Shown: in pieces, positions 3,571 to 40,126 of the stretch
Layout of the letters: the number at the start of each line of letters is the position of its first letter
How positions within the stretch are numbered: position 1 is the stretch's first letter
Source of the DNA: Escherichia phage vB_EcoS-UDF157lw
Length of the DNA stretch: 46,604 bases
Strand: one strand, 5' to 3'
Sequence record: OQ243221
Translations under genes and position numbers: made by a program
Notes under the pieces: generated by a model
What the model saw: the letters and a program-made list of their open reading frames with translations, nothing else
Database searches by the model: none
What the model was told of the DNA's origin: nothing

Positions 3571-3770
3571 TAACCACGTAGACGGCAATGACCGTAACGC
3601 TCATCGCGGAGATGCAAGCCGATAGCCGGGCTGGATAAAGATACGAGGCAAATAAAACCGCAGTTAGACATTGAGTGCTTAGCATAGCGCACGCCTTAAT
3701 GCAGTAAGTCGGACTTGACCTTCCGAGGATTGTGAAACCTCCCCGCATTCGGTAAGCGGGACTCATTCTA

Positions 3771-4147: not shown

Positions 4148-4663
4148 ATGTCAGAAGAGAAAAAGATTCACCAGAAGATTGGCAACTTCAAGGAGCTATA
4201 CAATAAGAAGTATGGCGACATTGCCAATCTAAAGATTAACCACAGGTACACTCCTGAGCAGGTATTCGACATGGCCGTAAGGTATTTCAGCTGGGCTGAA
4301 GAGCAAGCGATTAAGGCCATTGAAACGGCGAGCTTTCAGGGTGTTGTAACGGAAAACCTTGTTCATAAGCCACGAATATTTACGATAACTGGATTCCAAC
4401 TTTTCTGCGGCGTTGGTCATAATGCCATCAGTAAATGGCGCTCTTCGCCTGGATTTGATGAGGTGATGGAGTTTGTGGATTCGGTAATCTTTGAGCAGAA
4501 GTATCAGCTTGGCGTTAACAACATCATCAACCCTGGACTGATTGGCAAAGACCTTGGCATCGATAAGCCGCAAGAGGTTAACATCAACAACGCTTCTAAT
4601 GCGGCAGTGAACGATGAAGAAGCGATCAAGGCTGCTCTCGAATCAGTAATTGATAAGCTATAG
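4148..4663 (+). CDS. Putative terminase small subunit (171 aa)
   Basis: Position immediately upstream of the terminase large subunit; strong RBS aggagga; own promoter-like region after terminator. Assignment is positional. Confidence 0.5.
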   Translation: MSEEKKIHQKIGNFKELYNKKYGDIANLKINHRYTPEQVFDMAVRYFSWAEEQAIKAIETASFQGVVTENLVHKPRIFTITGFQLFCGVGHNAISKWRSSPGFDEVMEFVDSVIFEQKYQLGVNNIINPGLIGKDLGIDKPQEVNINNASNAAVNDEEAIKAALESVIDKL

Positions 4664-4703: not shown

Positions 4704-4728
4704 CATTTAATCAATGTTAGGAGGGTTT

Positions 4729-5217
4729 ATGAATTGGCATGATGAATTTGATTATGATGATGGGCTGCTTTACTGGAAGTGCAGCTTAAAAAATGGCTCA
4801 AGAAAGAAAGGCCACGTTGCTGGTAATATTGACGCAAGCGAAGGTTATGTGAACATAAATTTAAAGACTGGAAAGGTTAAAGCTCACCGTGTTATATGGG
4901 AGATGTTTAACGGTAAAATACCTGACGGAATGGAAATTGACCACATCAACCATGACAGAAGCGACAACAGAATTGATAACTTGAGAATGGTTACTAGGTC
5001 AGAGAACCAAAAGAATAAGAGTAGGTTCAAGAACAACACTTCAGGAATATCAGGTGTAACATGGTGTAGTCGCCATTGCAAATGGAGGGCCAGAATCATG
5101 ATTAACGGAAAGTCAAAGAATCTAGGTAGATTTGACACAATAGAAGCTGCGGCAAAGGCTCGCTCAGACGCTGTAGACGCTCTCGGTTTTCACAAGAATC
5201 ACGGAGATAGAAATTAA
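4729..5217 (+). CDS. HNH homing-type endonuclease with AP2-like DNA-binding domain (162 aa)
   Basis: Motifs EIDHINHDRSDNRIDNLRMVTRSENQ (HNH) and GVTW...KWRARI...LGRF (AP2-like). Start moved to ATG 4729, which follows RBS taggaggg. Confidence 0.8.
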   Translation: MNWHDEFDYDDGLLYWKCSLKNGSRKKGHVAGNIDASEGYVNINLKTGKVKAHRVIWEMFNGKIPDGMEIDHINHDRSDNRIDNLRMVTRSENQKNKSRFKNNTSGISGVTWCSRHCKWRARIMINGKSKNLGRFDTIEAAAKARSDAVDALGFHKNHGDRN

Positions 5218-6779
5218 TGATTATATGGGATGAATTAACCAATCAGGAGAGGCTGGCCATTAAGGCAATTTCAGAGCACAGCTTCGAAGGGTTCTTGCGC
5301 TGCTGGTTCTCAATCACTCAGGGGCAGAAGTTCATTATGAACTGGCATGCGAAATACCTTTGCCGGATTGTTGATGAGATTATTGAGGGCAAAAGGAAGA
5401 ACACGATAATCAACGTTGCTCCTGGCGCCTCTAAAACGGAGCTGTTCAGCATCCACTTTCCTGTATATAGCATGATAAAGCTGGGCAAGGTAAGGAATCT
5501 AAACCTTAGCTTTGCCGACACGCTGGTTAAGAGGAACTCAAAGAGAGTCAGGGATTTGATTAGTTCAAGTGAGTTTCAGAGTTTATGGCCTTGCAAGTTC
5601 GGAACATCAAGGGATGATGAGATACAGGTACTTGATGATTCCGGTAGGGTAAGGTTTGAGTCAATATCCAAGGCTATGGGGTCACAGATTACTGGTAGTC
5701 GTGGTGGTTATATTACCGACTCATATAGCGGGTGTATTATGTTGGATGATTGCGAGAAACCCGCAGATATGTTTAGTAAGGTTAAGCGCGAGTCCGTACA
5801 TACAACTCTAACAAACACAGTTCGCTCTCGTAGGGCTAGCTCAGTAAAAGGTAAGGAAACTCCTGTAATATCTATTCAGCAGCGATTACATGTTAATGAT
5901 GCAACGTGGTTGATGAAAGAGGGCGGCATGGGCATGGAATTTGACGTGATTAAGATTCCAGCTTTAGTTACGGAGGAATACGCCAACGAGCTTCCTGATT
6001 GGATTCGTGATCAGTTTTGTAAGGATGTTCTCTCATCTGAATACATAGAGCGAGATGGTGTTAAATACTATAGCTACTTCCCGCAAAAGGAGTCAGTTCA
6101 TGACATAATGAAGCTATGGGATCAAGATAGCTACACCTTCATGAGTCAGTATCTTCAAGAGCCAGTAGCCTTAGGCGGAAACCTGATTAACGTAGATTGG
6201 TTTGTTCGTCTTGACGAGAACAATAGGCCGCCAGTCAAGTATGACTACCGTTTCATTACGGCTGATACTGCCATGACTACTAAGAGTTATAGTGACTACT
6301 CAGTATTCCAGCTATGGGGGCGCAAAGATAACAGGCTTTATCTTCTGGATATGGTAAGGGGTAAATGGGAAGCACCTGAACTTGAGCAAACTCTTCTGGA
6401 CTTTGAGAGTAAGCATAGAGCAGCTAGTAAGACAGATGGTATATTGCGCAAGGTTATTATCGAGAAGAAAGCGTCTGGAATAGGACTTATCCAGTCGGCG
6501 GGTCGGGTAATGCGAACTCCTATCGAGCCTTTCGTTCCAGATACAGATAAGTTAACCAGGGTGATGAGCGCACTGCCACAGATTAAAGCTGGTAACGTAG
6601 TTCTGCCTGACTCTGCGCCATGGCTTACCTCGCTATTAACCGAGTTCTCGGCGTTCACTGCTGACGATTCTCATCCCCATGATGACATTGTGGATACGAC
6701 AACAATGGCCATCAACTGTGAATTGAACTTGAGTGACGATCCGAGAGCCCGCTTAATGAGGCTAGCTGGAGTTAAGTAA
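5217..6779 (+). CDS. Terminase large subunit (520 aa)
   Basis: Size, position before portal, deviant Walker A (APGASKTE) and acidic nuclease-like C-terminal half; start overlaps HNH stop (TAATG). Confidence 0.8.
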   Translation: MIIWDELTNQERLAIKAISEHSFEGFLRCWFSITQGQKFIMNWHAKYLCRIVDEIIEGKRKNTIINVAPGASKTELFSIHFPVYSMIKLGKVRNLNLSFADTLVKRNSKRVRDLISSSEFQSLWPCKFGTSRDDEIQVLDDSGRVRFESISKAMGSQITGSRGGYITDSYSGCIMLDDCEKPADMFSKVKRESVHTTLTNTVRSRRASSVKGKETPVISIQQRLHVNDATWLMKEGGMGMEFDVIKIPALVTEEYANELPDWIRDQFCKDVLSSEYIERDGVKYYSYFPQKESVHDIMKLWDQDSYTFMSQYLQEPVALGGNLINVDWFVRLDENNRPPVKYDYRFITADTAMTTKSYSDYSVFQLWGRKDNRLYLLDMVRGKWEAPELEQTLLDFESKHRAASKTDGILRKVIIEKKASGIGLIQSAGRVMRTPIEPFVPDTDKLTRVMSALPQIKAGNVVLPDSAPWLTSLLTEFSAFTADDSHPHDDIVDTTTMAINCELNLSDDPRARLMRLAGVK

Positions 6780-15724: not shown

Positions 15725-15730
15725 CAATCA

Positions 15731-15754
15731 AGCCCCTTCACAGGGGCTTTTTTT
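15731..15754 (+). terminator. Rho-independent terminator after major tail gene
   Basis: AGCCCCT-tcac-AGGGGCT hairpin followed by TTTTTTT; TTATAAT -10-like element directly after. Confidence 0.7.
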
Positions 15755-16174: not shown

Positions 16175-16429
16175 ATGCGGCGTTCCGATTACGAAGATGA
16201 GGATCCAGAGGAGTTACACTTCGATGATGACATGATGCTGGCATGGACTATTTATCAGGCGACCTCAACTCAATGGCGTGTAGGTATGAACGGCGCTACC
16301 GGAATAGATTATTCAGTACTCCCTTTCCTCTTTGATGTGTATAATGTCAAGGACAAAGAGATGACTTTAAATGACTTGCGAATACTAGAGTGCAAAGCAC
16401 TTGAGATGATGCAAGTAAGGCAAAAATAA
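16175..16429 (+). CDS. Tail assembly chaperone second ORF (T-like), possibly expressed by -1 frameshift
   Basis: This frame is open from 16070, overlapping the last 43 nt of the G-like ORF in the -1 frame; no canonical slippery heptamer seen. Confidence 0.35.
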   Translation: MRRSDYEDEDPEELHFDDDMMLAWTIYQATSTQWRVGMNGATGIDYSVLPFLFDVYNVKDKEMTLNDLRILECKALEMMQVRQK

Positions 16430-16452
16430 CCTCCCTTTGTGGAGGTTTTTTT
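16430..16452 (+). terminator. Hairpin plus T-run immediately upstream of tape measure gene (attenuator-like)
   Basis: CCTCC-ctttgt-GGAGG followed by TTTTTTT; the downstream GGAGG serves as the tape-measure RBS. Confidence 0.5.
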
Positions 16453-16463
16453 ATGGAGGTTAC

Positions 16464-19400
16464 ATGGCAGAATTTGCAGGTATCACACTTGGCGTTGACG
16501 TTCGCCAGGTTGACCAGGGCACAAAGTCCCTGCAAGAATTTAAACGTGCCAATGAACAGGCGGCAGCTGGAGTTAGCGAGTTCGTTAATGCTGAGCTGGT
16601 TGCGAAGAATCAGGCTCGCGACACTGCAAGGTATCTTTCTGAGCAGAGAAGTGCTTTTCAGTCGCTTCAGTCTGCAATTGATCCAACAGCTTCAAAATTG
16701 CGAAAACTTCAAGATGCAGCAAGTTCTCTTGATAAGGCCTTCTCCGCAGGGGTTGTTCCAGAGGCTGAGTTTTACAGGCTTGGTGAAGCATTAGAAACGC
16801 AAACAAATAGGTTAATAAGGTCTAGGTCAGCATTAACTGAGGAGGGTAGGGCGGCTATAGAAGCTGCAAAAAATAAAGAGTCCGCTGAGAGGCAAGCGCA
16901 ATCATTTATTAGGTCGCTTCAAGCGCAGGCTGATGCAGCGACATTAAGTAGGGATGAGTTCTTAAAGTTAAGGGCGGCACGGCTTGGAGTTAGCGATCAG
17001 GCAGCACCAATAATAGATAGAATAACACAGGCATCAAGTAACAATACTAACGCTATAGCAAATCAAAGTAGGGCGTTTCAGGCGGCTGGGATATCGGCAG
17101 GTCAGTACAATCAGGCCTTAAGGTTCCTTCCTGTACAGATCAATGATATCACTAGCTCGATTGCTAACGGTATGCCTTTATTTATGGTGCTTACCCAGCA
17201 AATACCGCAGATTACAGATTCATTTGGTGGATTTTCAAATACATTATCAGCTGCGCAAGGTGCAGTTATAGATTATGTATCATCAATAGGAGAGCTGAGA
17301 AGTTCATTTGCTGATGTTAGGACTCTTGGTGATGAGGCTATCTTAAGGTTTGGTCGTGCTGCAACTATATTTGGTGGCGCGATAATTGCTTCATTAGCTG
17401 TTCTTGGTAAAGCCGCTTACGACTCATTTATTGAGGTTAGGCAACTTAATAACGCAATAATTGAAACTGGAAGGTCGTCGACTTTATCAGTTGCCGCTAT
17501 CAAGGATTACGCTGATCAGCTAAATGAAACATCAAGGGCAACAAAAGGTTCTATTGGTGACATTTACCAGTCGCTAGTATCAAACGGAAGGCTTACTGTT
17601 AGTCAGATTAACTTAATCGCTAAGTCTGTTGCTAACCTTTCAGCTGTTAGTTCAAGGTCTGCGGAATCAATAATATCTGACTTTGATAAGATAGCAAAAG
17701 ATCCAGTTAAGGGGCTGATAGAGTTAGATAAGCAATTTAACTTTCTTAGCGAAGGGCAGTTGACCCTAGTTAACAACCTAAAAGAAACGGAAGGGCAAAC
17801 AGCAGCAGTAACAGCAGCTTTAGAAATATTTGCAGCTAGAAATGAGTCAGTTACAAAGCAGATTGAAGGCTCGCTTACACCTCTTGAATTGGCTTGGGGC
17901 GATTTCCGTAAGTTCGTTTCAGACACATGGGATGCTATAGGTGACAGGACTATAGGAGCTCTAAACCTATTTACTGACGTTATAGCTGCGACTATTGAGC
18001 AAATAAGACTGATAATTGGCACTGGCGACAAGCTAATAAATGATTTCGTAATACGCGGAATAGAGGCTTTACAAAAGATACCAGGAGCATCTGGCGTTGG
18101 TAATGGAATAGCCGAACAACTAAGGAAGGATAATGACGCAATAGAAAAGGAAAACATAAGGCTAGCTAAATCTATCGCTGATAGGGATGCAAGGGTTCGC
18201 AGGGGCGAGACTGGTTACTTGAGTGTTGGAGAGGGTTCAGAAAGTCAAACTGGAACTTCTGATAGAGATTCAGAATCAAGAAGAAAGGCTTTGGCCGATG
18301 AGATTAAAGCAATTGAGGAGAGAAGTAAAAAGACAAAATCTGGAGCAAAAGAAGAGAGGGATTTGACTATAAGTTATGAGTCTGGCGTTCTAGCTCTTCA
18401 GGCTCAGCTTAAGGTTCTTCAGGAGCACCGCCAGATTAGTGATGTTATCAGTAACGAACGCAAGCAGCTTTTTGCGGAGGAAGCTAAGTTTGCAATCCTT
18501 AATGAAAGGCTTGCAGACGGAACCATCACAAAGCAACAGCGATCATTACTGTTGCAGCAGGATAAAATCTTAGGACTTGCTCGCGAGAAGGCTGAGATTG
18601 GCGACCAGATTGTGCTGCAAGAAAGGGCCAATAAACTTCTTGATGACAACATCAAGAAGAATCGGCAGATTAACGCTGAAGCGGCATCAATTAGTGTTGG
18701 AGCAGGATTATCTCAGCGCGAAGCGGAAAGGCGGCGTGAGTTGGCGGCGCTAGAAGCCCAGCAAATTTCTAAAGGTGGCTCCGTAGATGACACTGACTTC
18801 CAGGCTTTACTTCAGGCTCGTCAGAATTTCTACAATCAGGAAGATGCATTACGTGGTAACTGGCTGGCTGGCGTTAAATCTGCGTTTGCTGAGACGGCTG
18901 ATGAATTGGCAAACTTTAATCAGATTGGTTCCGAGCTAGCCATGAGTGCCTTTAACGGATTGACTGACCAGATAACAAACCTGGTAACTACTGGAGAAGC
19001 TAGCTTCCGTGAGTTTACCGCATCGATTCTGAAGCAGATTGCACGCATTGCAACGCAGCTACTTTTAATTAAGGCGATTGAATCAACCATCTCCAGTTTT
19101 GGCGGTAGTGGTGGTGCAATTGGCTCTATTGGTAGCGCATTTGGTTTCGCTTCTGGCGGTTATACTGGAAACGGTGGTAAGTACGAGCCAGCTGGCACGG
19201 TGCATAAAGGTGAATTCGTCTTTACGAAGGAGGCAACCTCAAGGATTGGCGTTGATAACCTTTATAAGTTAATGCGCGGATACGCAAATGGTGGAGTGGT
19301 TGGTGCTGGTCCTGGCTATGCGACTGGCGGGCTTGTTGGTGGAAGTAACGTTAATGTTGGTGGAGTGAATGTTACCGTTCAGACAGGTCTTGGCGGTGGT

Positions 19401-19517
19401 GGCGGTAATGACGCTAAACAGTTAGAATCTGGTATCAGGGTTATCATCGCGGAAGAGATTACTCAGTCCTTCCAGCAGGGCGGAACGGCTTACCAGTTCT
19501 TGCGAGGTTATAGTTAA
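16464..19517 (+). CDS. Tail tape measure protein (1017 aa from ATG 16464)
   Basis: Length, alpha-helical Ala/Gln/Glu-rich composition, Gly-rich C-terminal region; position after chaperones. The track start 16437 is TTG; ATG 16464 follows GGAGG. Confidence 0.85.
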   Translation: MAEFAGITLGVDVRQVDQGTKSLQEFKRANEQAAAGVSEFVNAELVAKNQARDTARYLSEQRSAFQSLQSAIDPTASKLRKLQDAASSLDKAFSAGVVPEAEFYRLGEALETQTNRLIRSRSALTEEGRAAIEAAKNKESAERQAQSFIRSLQAQADAATLSRDEFLKLRAARLGVSDQAAPIIDRITQASSNNTNAIANQSRAFQAAGISAGQYNQALRFLPVQINDITSSIANGMPLFMVLTQQIPQITDSFGGFSNTLSAAQGAVIDYVSSIGELRSSFADVRTLGDEAILRFGRAATIFGGAIIASLAVLGKAAYDSFIEVRQLNNAIIETGRSSTLSVAAIKDYADQLNETSRATKGSIGDIYQSLVSNGRLTVSQINLIAKSVANLSAVSSRSAESIISDFDKIAKDPVKGLIELDKQFNFLSEGQLTLVNNLKETEGQTAAVTAALEIFAARNESVTKQIEGSLTPLELAWGDFRKFVSDTWDAIGDRTIGALNLFTDVIAATIEQIRLIIGTGDKLINDFVIRGIEALQKIPGASGVGNGIAEQLRKDNDAIEKENIRLAKSIADRDARVRRGETGYLSVGEGSESQTGTSDRDSESRRKALADEIKAIEERSKKTKSGAKEERDLTISYESGVLALQAQLKVLQEHRQISDVISNERKQLFAEEAKFAILNERLADGTITKQQRSLLLQQDKILGLAREKAEIGDQIVLQERANKLLDDNIKKNRQINAEAASISVGAGLSQREAERRRELAALEAQQISKGGSVDDTDFQALLQARQNFYNQEDALRGNWLAGVKSAFAETADELANFNQIGSELAMSAFNGLTDQITNLVTTGEASFREFTASILKQIARIATQLLLIKAIESTISSFGGSGGAIGSIGSAFGFASGGYTGNGGKYEPAGTVHKGEFVFTKEATSRIGVDNLYKLMRGYANGGVVGAGPGYATGGLVGGSNVNVGGVNVTVQTGLGGGGGNDAKQLESGIRVIIAEEITQSFQQGGTAYQFLRGYS

Positions 19518-19548
19518 TAAATGGGGCTTCGGCCCCTAAGGATTTTAA

Positions 19549-19899
19549 ATGGCATTAGATACTTTTACATGGTGTACCCAAATTCAAGGTGGATCAGCAA
19601 ACTTTACTAACGCGAATAACGTTAGGGTTGTCAGCTTTGGTAATGGCTACGAGCAAAGAGGTACTGGAGGATACAGGGCCAACAAGCGAACGTACAACAT
19701 GACATACACCAACAATGACTGGAGAGATGTTCTTGAATTCTGCTTCGCGCACATCATTACACCTTTCGCATGGACCACACCGCAGGGTGAGCTTAAGCTG
19801 TTTGTTGTAGCTCAAGATAGCATTAGCGTCACGCCAAATACCAAGGAAGTTCAGACCGTATCAATGCAATTTACTGAGGTTTTCACATCTATGCAGTAA
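19549..19899 (+). CDS. Minor tail protein (lambda M-like, 116 aa)
   Basis: First gene after tape measure in a lambda-like M-L-K-I-J order. Confidence 0.55.
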   Translation: MALDTFTWCTQIQGGSANFTNANNVRVVSFGNGYEQRGTGGYRANKRTYNMTYTNNDWRDVLEFCFAHIITPFAWTTPQGELKLFVVAQDSISVTPNTKEVQTVSMQFTEVFTSMQ

Positions 19900-19900
19900 A

Positions 19901-19943
19901 TAGCACTAATTGCTAAACAGAAATACCAAGGAAGGTTTACAAT
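19901..19943 (+). promoter_or_regulatory. Composite promoter-like element: TAGCACtaaTTGCTAAA, 22 nt, TACAAT
   Basis: Motif begins at the stop codon of the M-like gene; precedes the inserted 71-aa ORF. Confidence 0.5.
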
Positions 19944-19971
19944 TAAAAAACTTAAACAAGAGGTGATTGAT

Positions 19972-20187
19972 ATGAAAATTAATTTGCTTTGCACAAATGC
20001 TGAAGTTGGTGTCTTTGATTTAAATGTTGGTCAAACTTATGTGGCATACTTCAATGATGATTATGGTCATTATGAACTTTCTGATGAAGGTTTTTCTTAT
20101 GAGTTAAGCGAGGTTAGAGGTGCTCCTTTGACTTTCTACTGTAAATCTTTTAGTGGTGGATTGGTGACATTCATTAAAGTAAACTAA
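19972..20187 (+). CDS. Hypothetical protein (71 aa) in a moron-like insertion
   Basis: Own promoter element upstream and own terminator downstream, inserted between M-like and L-like tail genes; RBS agaggtg. Confidence 0.5.
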   Translation: MKINLLCTNAEVGVFDLNVGQTYVAYFNDDYGHYELSDEGFSYELSEVRGAPLTFYCKSFSGGLVTFIKVN

Positions 20188-20207
20188 GACCCTACGGGGT
20201 CTTTTTA
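20188..20207 (+). terminator. Rho-independent terminator
   Basis: GACCC-tac-GGGGTC hairpin followed by TTTTTATT. Confidence 0.65.
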
Positions 20208-20220
20208 TTGGAGAAATATT

Positions 20221-20985
20221 ATGGCTACGCCATTGAGCACTAAGTTTGAGAATCAATTACAAAGCTTGTTCCCTGGTGAGGTTGTCACGTTGATTGAGGT
20301 TGACGGAGGAAAGTTTGGTGCACCAGTTTACCGATTTCATGGGGAGAATATCAGCTATACCCCAGAAGAAATCATGATGGCACAATCAACAGGCCAGCCA
20401 CTACCAGCAAAGACAATTACCTTCCGTGGGCAAGAGTACGGAGCAAGGCCTTTCGGTATTCAGGGGATCAATATGACCTCTGATGGCAAGGCAAATAAGG
20501 TGACTCTAGTCGTATCCAACGTAGACCAGAATATATCTGCGCTTATCCGCACTTACAATGGACTTGTTCAGGCCAAAGTTACTATCTGGATCACCCTCCG
20601 CGAGAATATTAACGAAGATGGCACCATTGCTGATGGGGATTACCGCAAGCTGGTTTACTTCATTGAGCGACCTAAGCAGGTTGATTACAATACAGCCTCA
20701 TTTGAAATAACTAGCCCAATGGATATGGATGGTATTTACATTCCAGCGCGACTTGTTCAGTCTGTTTGTTATTGGGCACAGCGAGGGCTTTACCGATCAG
20801 GCAATGGATGTAACTACATGGGTACTCGATATTTCGATAAGGACAACGCGCCTGTGACTGACCCATCGCAAGACTTCTGTGCCGGAACGGTTCGTGCGTG
20901 CAAGCTAAGGTTCGGAGAAAATAATCAGTTAGACTTTGGTGGTTGCGCTGCTGCAAGCCTGCAAGCTAAAGCCAACCAAAACTAA
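20221..20985 (+). CDS. Minor tail protein (lambda L-like, 254 aa)
   Basis: Position plus C-terminal conserved cysteines (CYWAQ...GNGCNYMG...CAGTVRACK...GGCAA), consistent with the Fe-S-binding region of L-like proteins. Confidence 0.65.
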   Translation: MATPLSTKFENQLQSLFPGEVVTLIEVDGGKFGAPVYRFHGENISYTPEEIMMAQSTGQPLPAKTITFRGQEYGARPFGIQGINMTSDGKANKVTLVVSNVDQNISALIRTYNGLVQAKVTIWITLRENINEDGTIADGDYRKLVYFIERPKQVDYNTASFEITSPMDMDGIYIPARLVQSVCYWAQRGLYRSGNGCNYMGTRYFDKDNAPVTDPSQDFCAGTVRACKLRFGENNQLDFGGCAAASLQAKANQN

Positions 20986-22288: not shown

Positions 22289-22295
22289 AATCACA

Positions 22296-22318
22296 ACCCG
22301 CCTAGTGCGGGTTTTTTA
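22296..22318 (+). terminator. Hairpin plus T-run upstream of J-like gene
   Basis: ACCCGC-ctagt-GCGGGT followed by TTTTTTATT. Confidence 0.6.
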
Positions 22319-25755: not shown

Positions 25756-25762
25756 ATGATTA

Positions 25763-25787
25763 AGCCCCTTTCGGGGCTTTTTCTTTT
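25763..25787. terminator. Bidirectional terminator between J and the convergent leftward pair
   Basis: AGCCCC-tttc-GGGGCT hairpin followed by TTTTTCTTTT on the plus strand. Confidence 0.65.
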
Positions 25788-26748
25788 AGTAGAAGTTGGG
25801 AATAAATGGAAGTGCCATTGATATGTTTGTATCAAATGGGAATTGCGCGCCAGTTTGAGTTGAATAGTTACCTATAACAGTTCCTGGGACGGCTCTAACT
25901 GAACCTCCAGACATGCAAACACCCTTGTATCGTAAGTTATTATATCCACCAGTGACTCTAGTTGTCGCTCCGCATCTAAGTATTGGGAAGAACCCACCAT
26001 TCACCGACTGGTAACCATTATTAATCTGCATAAATCCACTTAGAACAAATGGCCTCCTGATGCTAGAGAAAACTATCTGCCCAGCGCTGTTTGATATCGT
26101 TAAACCCGGACCAGCTACTGGAGGTGTATTATTGAAAATAACTAACTGAACGTAAGTACTTGCAGCAACATCATCAATCCCATTGTATGTTATATCCCTA
26201 CACCATATCGTACTACCATCACTTTCAAGGGATACGTTTGGGTTATCCCATTTACCAAAAGGAATGCCGCCAACTGGCAATGATGCAGAGCCATTAACCT
26301 GGATGCCACCAACCCAAGCAGCAGTCATTAATCTGGAATTGCTTGATATCGCTGTAAAGTCAGTCGAGTTCTCAACAAGGACACCGGGGCTTGATTGTGA
26401 TGATGCTGGTAAAATCTCAAAGCACTGACCGCCAAACTGCAATATGCGACCATTAGCGCCGTTAAAGTTACTTAATGTAATCCTTCCAACCCCATCATTA
26501 ACCTTCGAGAACCCATTCATGTAATAAACTTCTGGTATAACATCATATGCATCAACATAAACAGCCTGAGTTGGCAGGCAGAATGCTGTTGAGCCAGGAG
26601 TCATAGTCAGACCGAAATCCCATGATGATGCTGGTGAGCTTAACCCGCTAGTGTTTATTGAACCAGTCACGGCTGGAACTCTCAAGCCAGCTGTGATTTC
26701 CATTGCTGGCCTTCCGTCATTCAAATCTATCAAGATACCTTGAGGCAT
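25786..26748 (-). CDS. Hypothetical beta-rich protein (320 aa), co-transcribed with Cor-like lipoprotein
   Basis: ATG overlaps the upstream stop (TAATG) with AAGGAG RBS; Gly/Ser/Asn/Thr-rich, no signal peptide. Confidence 0.55.
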   Translation of the reverse strand: MPQGILIDLNDGRPAMEITAGLRVPAVTGSINTSGLSSPASSWDFGLTMTPGSTAFCLPTQAVYVDAYDVIPEVYYMNGFSKVNDGVGRITLSNFNGANGRILQFGGQCFEILPASSQSSPGVLVENSTDFTAISSNSRLMTAAWVGGIQVNGSASLPVGGIPFGKWDNPNVSLESDGSTIWCRDITYNGIDDVAASTYVQLVIFNNTPPVAGPGLTISNSAGQIVFSSIRRPFVLSGFMQINNGYQSVNGGFFPILRCGATTRVTGGYNNLRYKGVCMSGGSVRAVPGTVIGNYSTQTGAQFPFDTNISMALPFIPNFY

Positions 26749-26993
26749 TATTTCCACTCCTTTGAGCCGTGATCTGCAACTGAGCCGCCGTAGCCTCCAC
26801 CAACCTTTGACTCAATGCCAGCATAACGAATATCAACCTCTCCAGCTGCAACAATAACACCACCCTTCCATTTAGCTACGCATACACCAGAGGCCTGAGT
26901 TGCACACCATCCGTCAGGTCGCGGGCCAGAAGAACAACCTACTGTCATGATTACTGCTGCTGCGATGATTGCTGATTTGATGAAGTTAGTCAT
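26748..26993 (-). CDS. Small lipoprotein, Cor-like superinfection-exclusion candidate (81 aa)
   Basis: N-terminal signal peptide with lipobox-like TVGC ([22 protein letters not shown]); location downstream of tail fibre genes as for cor in T1/phi80-type phages. Confidence 0.5.
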
Positions 26994-27017
26994 TTTGTAT
27001 TCCTTAGTAAGTATGTT

Positions 27018-27077
27018 TCGTTTCGATGGAGTAACTATAGCAAAGGCTTCTGCTGGAGTCTTTAGCAAATCGTGCTA
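27018..27077 (-). promoter_or_regulatory. Composite promoter-like element on minus strand: TAGCACgatTTGCTAAA, 23 nt, TGcTATAGT, leader CATCGAAACGA
   Basis: Reverse complement of 27018-27077 read directly; drives the lipoprotein operon. Confidence 0.5.
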
Positions 27078-38992: not shown

Positions 38993-40126
38993 ATGGCTAT
39001 AGCTAAAATCACCAACGAAGAGTTAAAGCAAGAACTGGCTAACGGTATGACTAACAAGGCAATCGCAGAGAAGTACGGTATGAATATTCGTAACGTAGAG
39101 CTGCGTCGCAGCAAGTTGGCTAAGGCTGGGGATGGTCACGGTCGCGATGTGAGTAACCTAATTCCTCAGGGCTACATGGTTAAAGGTGTATCTAGCCTTG
39201 TTGATAATGATGGCAATGTGAAGTTGCAATGGGTTAAGTCCTCTATTGATGCAGAGAAGCTTGAGGAGATGATGAATCAAGCGCGAGAGGCATTCTCTAG
39301 CGAGCTACCAAAAGAAAAAGCAGTTAAATCTGAAGGTCTGAATTTTGATGAAGATACTTTAGCTATGTATCCAGTATTTGACCTTCACATTGGCGCAATG
39401 GCCCACAAGCATGAGTGCGGAGAAAACTACGACACAGCAACGGCAGAGAAAGTAATGAACGATTATTTTGACTACGCCGTACAGAAATCTCCAAATTCAA
39501 AGAATGCTGTACTAGTGCTAGGAGGTGATCTGCTTCATTATGATTCTTTGGAAGCCAAAACTCCAGCCAGTGGTCACATCCTGGACAGTGACAGTCGCTA
39601 CGCCAAGATTGTTTATGTTTGCATTCGAGCGGTTCGCCGCGCAATTCGAAACATGCTTAGCAAACATGAAAACGTAGAGGTTAAAGTTATATCTGGTAAT
39701 CATGATGAAAGTGGTATGGTTTGGTTGCGGGCTGCGCTTGCTGCATTTTATGAGGAAGAGCCACGCGTTAGTATTGATGTTAGTCCCGCGGCAATGATGG
39801 TAACTAAGTTTGGTTCTACAATGCTTGGTTTCACTCACGGGCATCAAATGCGTAAAGCTGATACTCGCCTTTCGGTTATGGCTACTGACTGGCGACGTGA
39901 CTTTGGTTTAAGTGATTATGTATACACCCACTCAGGCCACTGGCATTCACAGAAGATTACAGAGACAAATCTTGGTATTGATGAGGTTCATGGTCAGCTT
40001 GGTTCACCAGATGCATATAGTGCGAATGGTGGATGGCGCTCACAAAGGCAGGCCGCGGTAATCATCTATCATAAAGAGTTTGGTGAGGTTGGTCGCTTTA
40101 TCTGCCGTCCAGAAATGTTCAAATAA
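38993..40126 (+). CDS. Calcineurin-like metallophosphoesterase with N-terminal HTH-like domain (377 aa)
   Basis: Phosphoesterase motifs D-L-H (FDLHIG), GGDLLH, GNHDE, GH.H (HSGHWH); N-terminal about 110 aa with HTH-like TNKAIAEKYGMNIRNVELRRSKL. Confidence 0.8.
   Translation: MAIAKITNEELKQELANGMTNKAIAEKYGMNIRNVELRRSKLAKAGDGHGRDVSNLIPQGYMVKGVSSLVDNDGNVKLQWVKSSIDAEKLEEMMNQAREAFSSELPKEKAVKSEGLNFDEDTLAMYPVFDLHIGAMAHKHECGENYDTATAEKVMNDYFDYAVQKSPNSKNAVLVLGGDLLHYDSLEAKTPASGHILDSDSRYAKIVYVCIRAVRRAIRNMLSKHENVEVKVISGNHDESGMVWLRAALAAFYEEEPRVSIDVSPAAMMVTKFGSTMLGFTHGHQMRKADTRLSVMATDWRRDFGLSDYVYTHSGHWHSQKITETNLGIDEVHGQLGSPDAYSANGGWRSQRQAAVIIYHKEFGEVGRFICRPEMFK

What the first reader, a model, noticed from the sequence alone, without database searches (positions are those of the whole stretch)
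19901..20207. Self-contained moron inside the tail-tip gene series: promoter element, 71-aa ORF, terminator
Between the M-like and L-like tail genes lies a unit with its own composite promoter (TAGCACtaaTTGCTAAA ... TACAAT), a 71-aa ORF (MKINLLCTNAEVGVFDLNVGQTYVAYFNDDYGHYELSDEGF...) and a hairpin plus T-run terminator. Independently transcribed inserts in late operons are classic morons and often encode host-modulating, exclusion or anti-defence functions.
Basis: partly seen in the sequence, partly recalled or inferred. Interest (0 to 1): 0.55.

Follow-up and report, generated by a model that had tools for sequence, protein, structure and literature searches.

The report
Gp54-like accessory gene in tail operon
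A T1-like coliphage carries a 283-bp low-GC insert between two tail genes, with its own phage-family promoter element and a 71-residue protein whose predicted fold matches Gp54 of phage Bas11, a small non-essential protein that a bacterial immune sensor (CapRel) recognises; it is a genuine "moron", though its terminator belongs to the neighbouring tail-gene junction and its function is still unknown.

Summary
The window is a Rogunavirus (T1-like, 97% to Rogue1). A 71-aa ORF (19972-20187) lies between the gpM-like and gpL-like tail genes.

It is preceded by one of 15 copies of the family repeat ATAGCAC-N3-TTGCTAAA (0.37 expected), followed 20 nt later by TACAAT, and it ends at a hairpin plus T-run.

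The moron reading is supported:
- 23 related loci have a 30-81-nt M-L gap.
- Only a small Rogunavirus subclade carries this insert.
- AHP24, AHS24 and Sf12 carry an unrelated 64-aa ORF at the same point with the same flanks.
- The insert is 32% GC against 44% for the window (0.1 percentile).
- dN/dS is 0.30, against about 0.04 for the neighbouring genes.
- Distant homologues sit at two other late-module sites, each as promoter-ORF-terminator units.

Two corrections apply. The hairpin is the resident M-L junction hairpin, present in empty-site phages, and it must be leaky because gene L has no promoter of its own. TTGCTA is 22 nt from the -10 hexamer, so it is not a canonical -35.

The parts
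19549..19899 (+). Upstream neighbour: gpM-like minor tail protein gene (116 aa). Its stop codon TAA (19897-19899) plus A19900 forms the left TAAA junction.
   Evidence: Pfam Phage_min_tail 2.4e-18 and PHROG 14; junction alignment.
19901..20183 (+). The 283-bp insert relative to empty-site phages. The boundary is ambiguous by 4 nt because TAAA is repeated at both ends (19897-19900 and 20180-20183).
   Evidence: Alignment A1 with Jk06 and AHP42 empty sites; gap survey; GC 32.2% against 44.0%, 0.1 percentile of equal-sized windows.
19900..19917 (+). Copy of the T1-family direct repeat ATAGCAC-N3-TTGCTAAA (imperfect dyad TAGCA-N5-TGCTA), the upstream element of the promoter module.
   Evidence: 15 copies against 0.37 expected; same consensus described in phage TLS (PMC11447400); the same element precedes gene 54 of Bas11.
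19938..19943 (+). -10-like hexamer TACAAT, 20 nt after the repeat element.
   Evidence: 15 of 15 repeat copies have a -10-like hexamer at +19 to +21. Transcription start near 19950 is inferred only.
19958..19966 (+). Shine-Dalgarno sequence AAGAGGTGA.
   Evidence: Read directly from the sequence.
19972..20187 (+). ORF-A: 71 aa, 8.0 kDa, pI 4.4, no transmembrane segment or signal peptide, predicted six-stranded beta-barrel with a long beta1-beta2 loop. Belongs to PHROG 29402.
20186..20211 (+). Resident M-L junction hairpin (7-bp stem, UACG loop) plus T-run. It acts as a leaky terminator or RNA 3' hairpin and is not part of the insert.
   Evidence: dG -11.4. Present in empty-site phages and annotated as a terminator in AHP42.
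20221..20985 (+). Downstream neighbour: gpL-like minor tail protein gene (254 aa).
   Evidence: Pfam Phage_tail_L 4.8e-45.

Best explanation
The feature is an accessory gene cassette (a moron) inserted at the gpM/gpL junction of the tail-tip operon of a Rogue1-like T1-family phage.

Proposed mechanism:
1. Host RNA polymerase starts at a promoter of the phage family's own repeat type (ATAGCAC-N3-TTGCTAAA, 20 nt, TACAAT). This is the same class that heads most small early-region genes of this phage, and also gene 54 of phage Bas11.
2. The ORF is therefore transcribed independently of the late tail operon, and probably earlier.
3. The short transcript has a strong ribosome-binding site and encodes a 71-residue acidic cytoplasmic protein.
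4. Transcripts end, only partly, at the hairpin that already belonged to the M-L junction.
5. [quoted passage not shown] This is the rare fold of Gp54 of Bas11, a non-essential small protein that binds and activates the CapRel-SJ46 immunity protein.

By analogy, it most likely acts by binding a host protein, either as an anti-defence or host-takeover factor or as something immune sensors can detect. It is unlikely to be a virion part.

Shown: the insert, its polymorphism, the promoter-type element, coding selection, foreign composition, mobility of the family between sites, and the fold match.
Inferred: promoter activity and timing, leakiness of the hairpin, and all of the protein's function. 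I give about 0.35 to the specific anti-defence or host-protein-binding role.
For: Insertion polymorphism:
- The M-L gap is 39-40 nt in Jk06, AHP42 and phiEB49, and 30-81 nt in 23 loci overall.
- It is 321-324 nt in the ORF-A phages: the window, Rogue1, C119, phiKP26 and a Logan contig. BECP10 also encodes ORF-A; its gap was not measured.
- ORF-A occurs in only 4 distinct phages of 50,697 records, 5 clusters among 5.8 billion proteins, and 2 more representatives among 1.8 billion.

Foreign origin and selection:
- GC is 32.2% against 44.0% (0.1 percentile). GC3 is 23.6% against about 46% in the flanking genes.
- dN/dS is 0.30, with dN about 5-7 times that of M, L and K.

Promoter:
- 15 repeat copies against 0.37 expected.
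- 15 of 15 have a -10-like hexamer at +19 to +21, and 14 of 15 have a start codon 51-67 nt after the motif.
- The TLS paper reports the same repeat in the direction of transcription, about 76 nt upstream of start codons.
- Gene 54 of Bas11 has the same element. Mutations just upstream of it lowered Gp54 expression, and the native promoter drove expression from a plasmid in uninfected E. coli (PMC11578894).
- Inside the late block 4148-25755 there are only two repeat copies. Both head accessory inserts: the HNH endonuclease at 4714-5217, and ORF-A.

Mobility:
- Homologue P0009 (49% identity) sits just upstream of terS as terminator, repeat, TATAAT, ORF, terminator.
- Homologue P0010 sits between a portal-like gene and the head protease, with a degenerate repeat, TATCAT and a terminator.

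Fold:
- The AF2 model has pLDDT 93.7 and pTM 0.78.
Against: - There is no sequence similarity to Gp54. ORF-A gives no hit to Pfam PF25180, and hhalign probability is 0.07%. Common ancestry therefore rests on a predicted structure built from a 5-sequence alignment.
- Gp54's own benefit to its phage is unknown, so the analogy does not deliver a function.
- Promoter activity of this copy is untested. It lacks the CATCGAAACGA leader that most other copies share. The published view of the repeat is undecided between stoperator, enhancer site and UP-like element.
- The positions of the Bas11 promoter mutations relative to the repeat are not given in the text I could read.
- The terminator is not part of the cassette.
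- Virion proteomics in this group covered only major gel bands, so an 8-kDa virion component is not formally excluded.
Confidence: 0.62

Rival explanations
1. The selected feature is the promoter, not the protein. The repeat-type promoter was inserted to give the downstream tail-tip genes L, K, I and J an extra or earlier transcriptional input, and the small ORF is a passenger.
For: Gene L begins 18 nt after the hairpin with no space for its own promoter, so transcripts from the cassette promoter that pass the hairpin would read into L-K-I. Two unrelated ORFs share the same promoter element at the same point. phiJLA23 appears to keep only the repeat element.
Against: ORF-A is under purifying selection (dN/dS 0.30). 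It is kept intact at three different genomic sites with different downstream genes. Most relatives manage without any promoter here. The phiJLA23 junction contains an N and has the same 39-nt length as the empty site, so it may be an assembly artefact.
Confidence: 0.12
2. ORF-A is a tail-tip accessory, such as an assembly chaperone or a small decoration, placed next to the proteins it serves.
For: Position between gpM-like and gpL-like genes. Three GenBank records call it 'tailspike sialidase'.
Against: It is absent from phages with 93-100% identical M and L proteins. It has an early-type promoter, foreign composition and fast protein evolution. Homologues sit next to terminase or head-protease genes instead. 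The fold matches a non-structural early protein. The sialidase label has no support in Pfam, NCBIfam or PDB sequence searches, and at 71 residues ORF-A is far smaller than known endosialidases (own knowledge). AHP24 (slot filled) and AHP42 (slot empty) gave identical virion banding patterns, although small proteins would not be resolved.
Confidence: 0.05
3. ORF-A is a superinfection-exclusion or envelope-acting protein, like the Cor or Llp lipoproteins of T1- and T5-type phages.
For: Such genes are classic morons in or near tail modules. This window carries one: a PF24052 phage lipoprotein at 26748-27068 on the minus strand, under another repeat-type promoter.
Against: ORF-A has no signal peptide, lipobox or transmembrane segment. 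Residues 2-10 form the first barrel strand in a confident model.
Confidence: 0.03

Closest known systems
Gp54 of phage Bas11 (PDB 9AXB; Pfam PF25180 'Phage antiviral trigger protein Gp54'; Zhang et al., Nature 2024, PMC11578894)
Morons of lambdoid phages (Hendrix/Juhala concept, as summarised in PMC4378225)
   Same: A single ORF with a promoter, inserted between two genes that are adjacent in relatives, with deviant nucleotide composition, located in a late operon.
   Different: The phage is virulent, so there is no prophage expression or lysogenic conversion. The promoter is the phage family's own repeat element rather than a foreign one. The terminator is the resident junction hairpin.
PeSL mobile regulatory cassettes of T4-type phages (Arbiol et al. 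2010, PMC2839356)
   Same: A repeated promoter motif associated with stem-loop terminators brackets small non-essential ORFans. Indels and replacements between close relatives occur at these motifs. Here, two unrelated cargos are bounded by the same repeat on the left and the same hairpin on the right.
   Different: The motif and the phage family differ. Recombination between repeats and mini-circle formation are not shown here. The original insertion into an empty M-L site has only a 4-nt TAAA microhomology.
T1-family 21-nt direct repeat aaATAGCACnnnTTGnTAAAA (phage TLS re-annotation, PMC11447400)
   Same: The element at 19900-19917 matches the consensus, points in the direction of transcription, is intergenic, and lies 72 nt upstream of the start codon (the paper gives about 76).
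   Different: The paper leaves its role open and does not report the fixed-distance -10 hexamer. That hexamer is present in 15 of 15 copies here.
DUF7244 (PF23896), small proteins of siphophages
   Same: Four of seven ORF-A family members give weak hits (best E 8.2e-5). A DUF7244 protein of phage MM01 appears among the weaker BFVD structural matches.
   Different: All scores are below the gathering threshold (23 bits or less against 27; the window protein scores 13 bits).

Membership tests
Moron (independent 'more DNA' unit in a phage operon) | Extra DNA lying between two genes that are adjacent in related phages | tested here: met
   The M-L gap is 30-81 nt in 23 loci and 321-324 nt in the ORF-A phages. 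The boundaries are defined to within 4 nt.
Moron (independent 'more DNA' unit in a phage operon) | Own promoter upstream of the ORF | tested here: inconclusive
   At sequence level this is met: a perfect copy of a 15-fold repeated promoter-type module with TACAAT at the family's fixed distance. Activity of this copy was not testable. Indirect support comes from Bas11 gene 54.
Moron (independent 'more DNA' unit in a phage operon) | Own terminator downstream, brought in with the ORF | tested here: not met
   A hairpin plus T-run follows the ORF, but the identical hairpin is present in empty-site phages, so it is resident. Homologous cassettes at other sites do have their own terminators.
Moron (independent 'more DNA' unit in a phage operon) | Nucleotide composition different from the neighbouring genes | tested here: met
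   GC is 32.2% against 44.0% (0.1 percentile). GC3 is 23.6% against 46.2% (M) and 45.5% (L).
Pfam PF25180 Gp54 (phage antiviral trigger protein) | Sequence match to the family model above its gathering score | tested here: not met
   ORF-A and its relatives give no PF25180 hit at E up to 1. Profile-profile probability is 0.07%.
Pfam PF25180 Gp54 (phage antiviral trigger protein) | Six-stranded beta-barrel with a prominent beta1-beta2 loop | tested here: met
Pfam PF25180 Gp54 (phage antiviral trigger protein) | Direct binding and activation of CapRel-SJ46 | not testable with these tools
   This needs co-expression toxicity, pull-down or ITC assays as in PMC11578894.
PHROG 29402 (unknown function) | Full-length match to the family profile | tested here: met
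   E 6.5e-53 over residues 1-71 of 71. P0009 and P0010 also match.
T1-family direct repeat aaATAGCACnnnTTGnTAAAA | Consensus match, intergenic, in the direction of transcription, about 76 nt upstream of a start codon | tested here: met
   ATAGCACTAATTGCTAAA at 19900-19917 on the plus strand, 72 nt before ATG 19972.
Tailspike sialidase / endosialidase (the GenBank label on C119, phiKP26 and BECP10 homologues) | Sialidase catalytic domain or any similarity to known endosialidases | tested here: not met
DUF7244 (PF23896) | Score at or above the gathering threshold of 27 bits | tested here: not met
   The window protein scores 13.1 bits. The best family member scores 23 bits.

The most novel reading that the evidence does not exclude
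ORF-A belongs to a sequence-divergent superfamily of Gp54-like six-stranded beta-barrels in T1-family phages. These small proteins would be host- or defence-binding effectors that also serve as recognisable patterns for CapRel-type sensors. They would move between phages and between genomic sites as cassettes headed by the ATAGCAC...TTGCTAAA promoter repeat, in a T1-family counterpart of the PeSL shuffling system of T4-type phages.
Probability: 0.2. Interest if true: 0.75.

Novelty: new member of a known kind. Interest (0 to 1): 0.5.

Why it matters
Gp54 of Bas11 is the only characterised protein with this rare fold, and it is one of the few known cases where one bacterial immune sensor recognises two unrelated phage proteins.

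A second protein family with the same fold, with no sequence similarity, has now turned up in a different Drexlerviridae subfamily, under the same promoter class and in a polymorphic slot. This suggests the fold is a recurrent tool of T1-like phages. It also gives natural isogenic-like comparisons: phages with cargo A, with cargo B, or with an empty slot. These can be used to ask what such proteins do and whether CapRel-type or other defences see them.

The analysis also gives the undecided T1-family repeat element a concrete geometry (a fixed -10 hexamer 20 nt downstream) and links it to gene mobility. Finally, it flags a wrong 'tailspike sialidase' label that has spread through three GenBank records.

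Tried and rejected
- **ORF-B as a sequence homologue of Gp54.** No PDB sequence match. Rejected.
- **A sequence homologue of Gp54 or a paralogue of ORF-A elsewhere in the window.** None found.
- **TTGCTA as a canonical -35.** Rejected, because the spacer is 22 nt in all copies.
- **A phage-encoded class-II activator binding the dyad.** The dyad would be centred near -42. This is weakened by the expression of Gp54 from its native promoter in uninfected cells.
- **Junction 16-mer scans.** I scanned viral and metagenome collections for further cargo types.
- **Other library searches.** PADLOC, NCBIfam, Pfam and PDB sequence searches for ORF-A were all negative.
- **AFDB50 fold search.** The library was not available.
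- **Drexlerviridae transcriptomics.** A literature search found nothing usable.
- **First guess at the Bas11 accession.** It fetched Bas59 instead.

Full report
**What the window is.** The region is 97% identical to Enterobacteria phage vB_EcoS_Rogue1 (Drexlerviridae, Rogunavirinae), and 249 phage records match it. The genes around the finding are:
- the tape measure gene (16437-19517);
- a gpM-like minor tail protein (19549-19899, Pfam Phage_min_tail);
- the ORF in question;
- a gpL-like protein (20221-20985, Phage_tail_L);
- a JAB/NlpC-P60 gpK-like protein;
- a gpI-like protein;
- the 1141-aa gpJ-like tip protein.

**Checking the observation.** The ORF runs from ATG 19972 to stop codon 20185-20187 (71 aa), behind a strong Shine-Dalgarno sequence, AAGAGGTGA. 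The hairpin AAGACCC-UACG-GGGUCUU with a T-run at 20186-20211 is real, with dG -11.4 kcal/mol.

The generic sigma-70 scan gives only a 9-of-12 site here (TAAACA-18-TACAAT). Such sites are no more frequent in the region than in shuffled sequence (17 against 20.3).

TAGCACTAATTGCTAAA occurs 15 times in the window with 3 or fewer mismatches, against 0.37 expected. All 15 copies point in the direction of the next gene. All 15 have a -10-like hexamer 19-21 nt after the motif (background 0.066 per site). In 14 of 15, a start codon with a ribosome-binding site follows 51-67 nt after the motif. The 19901 copy has zero mismatches, TACAAT at +20 and its ATG at +54.

TTGCTA lies 22 nt from the -10 hexamer in these copies, so it is not a canonical -35.

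**The repeat is already described.** The re-annotation of phage TLS reports a 21-nt direct repeat, aaATAGCACnnnTTGnTAAAA. It occurs in 21 copies, in the direction of transcription, about 76 nt upstream of start codons. It is also seen in T1, Rtp and Rogue1. Its role is left open between stoperator, enhancer site and UP-like element (PMC11447400).

**The insert and its boundaries.** I aligned the M-L junction of eight phages. Jk06 and AHP42 read ...ATGCAG TAA ACTAAGACCCTACGGGGTCTTTTTTATTGGAGAAATATTATG. The M stop codon is followed directly by the hairpin, the T-run and the L ribosome-binding site, giving a 39-nt gap.

The window, Rogue1 and C119 have 283 extra bases (19901-20183) between the TAAA of the M stop and a second TAAA. 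The hairpin therefore belongs to the ancestral junction. It is annotated as a terminator in AHP42, which has no insert. The last codon and the stop codon of the ORF are supplied by that junction.

Because L starts 18 nt after the hairpin in all these phages, the hairpin must allow read-through. It is at most a partial terminator (inference).

**How widespread the insert is.** I surveyed 31 loci that encode both M and L. Gaps are 30-81 nt in 23 loci, including phages with 93-100% identical M and L proteins. Two groups have long gaps:
- ORF-A phages, 321-324 nt: Rogue1, C119, phiKP26 and a Logan metagenome contig.
- AHP24, AHS24 and Sf12, 341-347 nt.

**Distribution of ORF-A.** tblastn finds ORF-A in only four distinct phages of 50,697 records: C119, phiKP26, BECP10 and Rogue1. 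A word-indexed search of 5.8 billion proteins finds five clusters. A full HMM search of 1.84 billion representatives adds only two 71-aa relatives and one weak repetitive hit.

In Rogue1 the gene is frameshifted by one extra T in a T-run. Rogue1 was 454-sequenced, so this may be an artefact.

**A different cargo in the same slot.** AHP24, AHS24 and Sf12 carry a 64-aa ORF (PHROG 24631) at the same insertion point. It has the same left flank (TAAATAGCACGAATTGCTAAA plus a -10 hexamer and the canonical CATCGA(A/G)ACGA leader) and the same right flank (TAAACTAAGACCC...).

The two cargos are not demonstrably related:
- hhalign probability is 6.6%.
- The ORF-B model has a beta4-alpha-beta layout.

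Scans of viral and metagenome collections for the junction 16-mer found no third cargo type.

**Evidence that the ORF is a real, foreign, selected gene.**
- Against the 68%-identical homologue on L009, dN/dS is 0.30 (dN 0.19). M, L and K give 0.045, 0.036 and 0.044 at similar dS.
- The insert has 32.2% GC against 44.0% for the window. This is the 0.1 percentile of equal-sized windows.
- GC3 is 23.6% against about 46% in M and L.

**The family moves between sites.** The two distant relatives sit elsewhere.
- P0009 (49% identity) lies immediately upstream of the small and large terminase genes of an uncultured T1-like phage. The order there is terminator, ATAGCACTTTTTGTTAAA, 20 nt, TATAAT, ORF, terminator.
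- P0010 lies between a portal-like gene and the head maturation protease. It has a degenerate repeat (TTTCGCACGAATTGCTAAAA), TATCAT and its own terminator.

Within the window's late block (4148-25755) there are only two repeat copies, and both head accessory inserts. One is ORF-A. The other is an HNH_3/AP2 endonuclease (4714-5217) sitting between the small and large terminase genes. In Bas11 those two genes are adjacent.

**What the protein is.** ORF-A is 8.0 kDa with pI 4.4. It has no transmembrane segment or signal peptide. It gives no Pfam, NCBIfam or PADLOC hit and no meaningful PDB sequence match. It belongs to PHROG 29402, of unknown function.

An AlphaFold2 model from a five-sequence alignment is confident: pLDDT 93.7 and pTM 0.78, with six strands and an 11-residue beta1-beta2 loop.

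As far as I know, 9AXB (released 2024) postdates AlphaFold2's training data, so the model should be independent of it (own knowledge).

BFVD matches are small uncharacterised proteins of other siphophages, among them IME347, SU57, NBD2 and Pocis76, with TM 0.64-0.76.

**The link with Gp54 beyond the fold.** Bas11 is also a Drexlerviridae phage (Tempevirinae). Gene 54 (39780-39980, minus strand) lies in the early small-gene region. It is preceded by GATAGCACTTTTTGTTAAA, 20 nt and TATCAT, which is the same promoter module.

The paper reports two relevant results. Escape mutations immediately upstream of gene 54 lowered Gp54 levels. [quoted passage not shown] This suggests that the promoter class works with host RNA polymerase alone, so genes behind it can be expressed from the start of infection.

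At the sequence level there is no relationship. Gp54 defines Pfam PF25180. ORF-A and its relatives do not hit that model, and profile-profile comparison gives 0.07%. Four of seven ORF-A family members give sub-threshold hits to DUF7244.

**Interpretation.**
- The promoter is the phage family's own repeat-type promoter.
- The terminator is resident and leaky.
- The protein now has a specific structural relative.

I file the feature as a moron-type accessory cassette. I describe the protein as having a Gp54-like fold, not as a member of PF25180. Its function is inferred: a cytoplasmic binder of a host or defence protein that immune sensors might also detect.

The main rival is that the promoter, rather than the ORF, is what selection keeps, through its input into L-K-I. 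A structural role and an exclusion role are unlikely.

The 'tailspike sialidase' label on the C119, phiKP26 and BECP10 homologues has no support.

The arrangement of a repeated promoter motif plus hairpins bracketing exchangeable ORFans resembles the PeSL cassettes of T4-type phages (PMC2839356). Recombination at the repeats is not shown here.

Noticed in passing
window 1581, 2424, 4661, 19901, 29593, 35072, 37468, 38153, 38839, 40391 (+); 27077, 44465, 44663, 45625, 46460 (-): Fifteen copies of TAGCAC-N3-TTGCTAAA, each with a -10-like hexamer 19-21 nt downstream. Most also have a conserved leader (tacYYcATCGAAACGA) and then a small gene. If the hexamer spans -12 to -7, the imperfect dyad TAGCA-N5-TGCTA is centred near -42. 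In several copies the -10 hexamer is embedded in a short inverted repeat, for example GGGGTAtagtTACCCC after 40391.
   Followed up: partly
window 4714-5217 (+): An HNH_3 plus AP2 endonuclease gene sits between the small (4148-4663) and large (5217-6779) terminase genes and is headed by the repeat copy at 4661. It looks like a second accessory or homing insert in the late block. In Bas11 the two terminase genes are adjacent.
   Followed up: partly
window 26748-27068 (-): A phage lipoprotein (PF24052, 5.8e-38) with a signal peptide and a Cys lipobox lies downstream of the tail-tip gene under the repeat copy at 27077 (-). It may be a Cor/Llp-type superinfection-exclusion gene. Next to it is a DUF6453 protein (25786-26757, minus strand).
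   Followed up: partly
window 15730-15749, 16428-16447, 19523-19536, 20186-20203, 22295-22313, 25762-25779 (+): The late operon is punctuated by short GC-rich hairpins, some with UUCG or UACG tetraloops. Most are followed by T-runs and sit immediately before the next gene's ribosome-binding site. They must be leaky terminators or RNA-stabilising or processing hairpins.
   Followed up: partly
L001 (Rogue1) about 3700-3710: The Rogue1 copy of ORF-A is frameshifted by one extra T in a T-run and is annotated as 43 aa. The genome was 454-sequenced, so this is either a homopolymer error or natural inactivation of the gene.
   Followed up: partly
L007 (phiJLA23) 1100-1140: The phiJLA23 M-L junction keeps the repeat element but lacks both the ORF and the hairpin. 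It contains an N and has the same 39-nt length as the empty site. It is either a deletion derivative or an assembly artefact.
   Followed up: no
L006 (phiEB49) 790-1269: phiEB49 has an HNH endonuclease gene between the tape measure gene and gene M. This is another insertion in the neighbouring junction of the same operon.
   Followed up: no
P0011 (970 aa): A repetitive 970-aa protein gives six weak matches to ORF-A residues 13-53 (E 3e-5 overall), for example VYDLKLGDVLVTKYHDTNSGHDSLSFSYDAVS. Its repeats look like Hcp or tail-tube-type units. This is probably a chance or compositional match.
   Followed up: no
GenBank records C119_16, phiKP26 and BECP10 homologues: The 71-aa protein is labelled 'tailspike sialidase' in three records and in UniProt/BFVD. 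The label appears to have spread by annotation transfer without any supporting similarity.
   Followed up: yes
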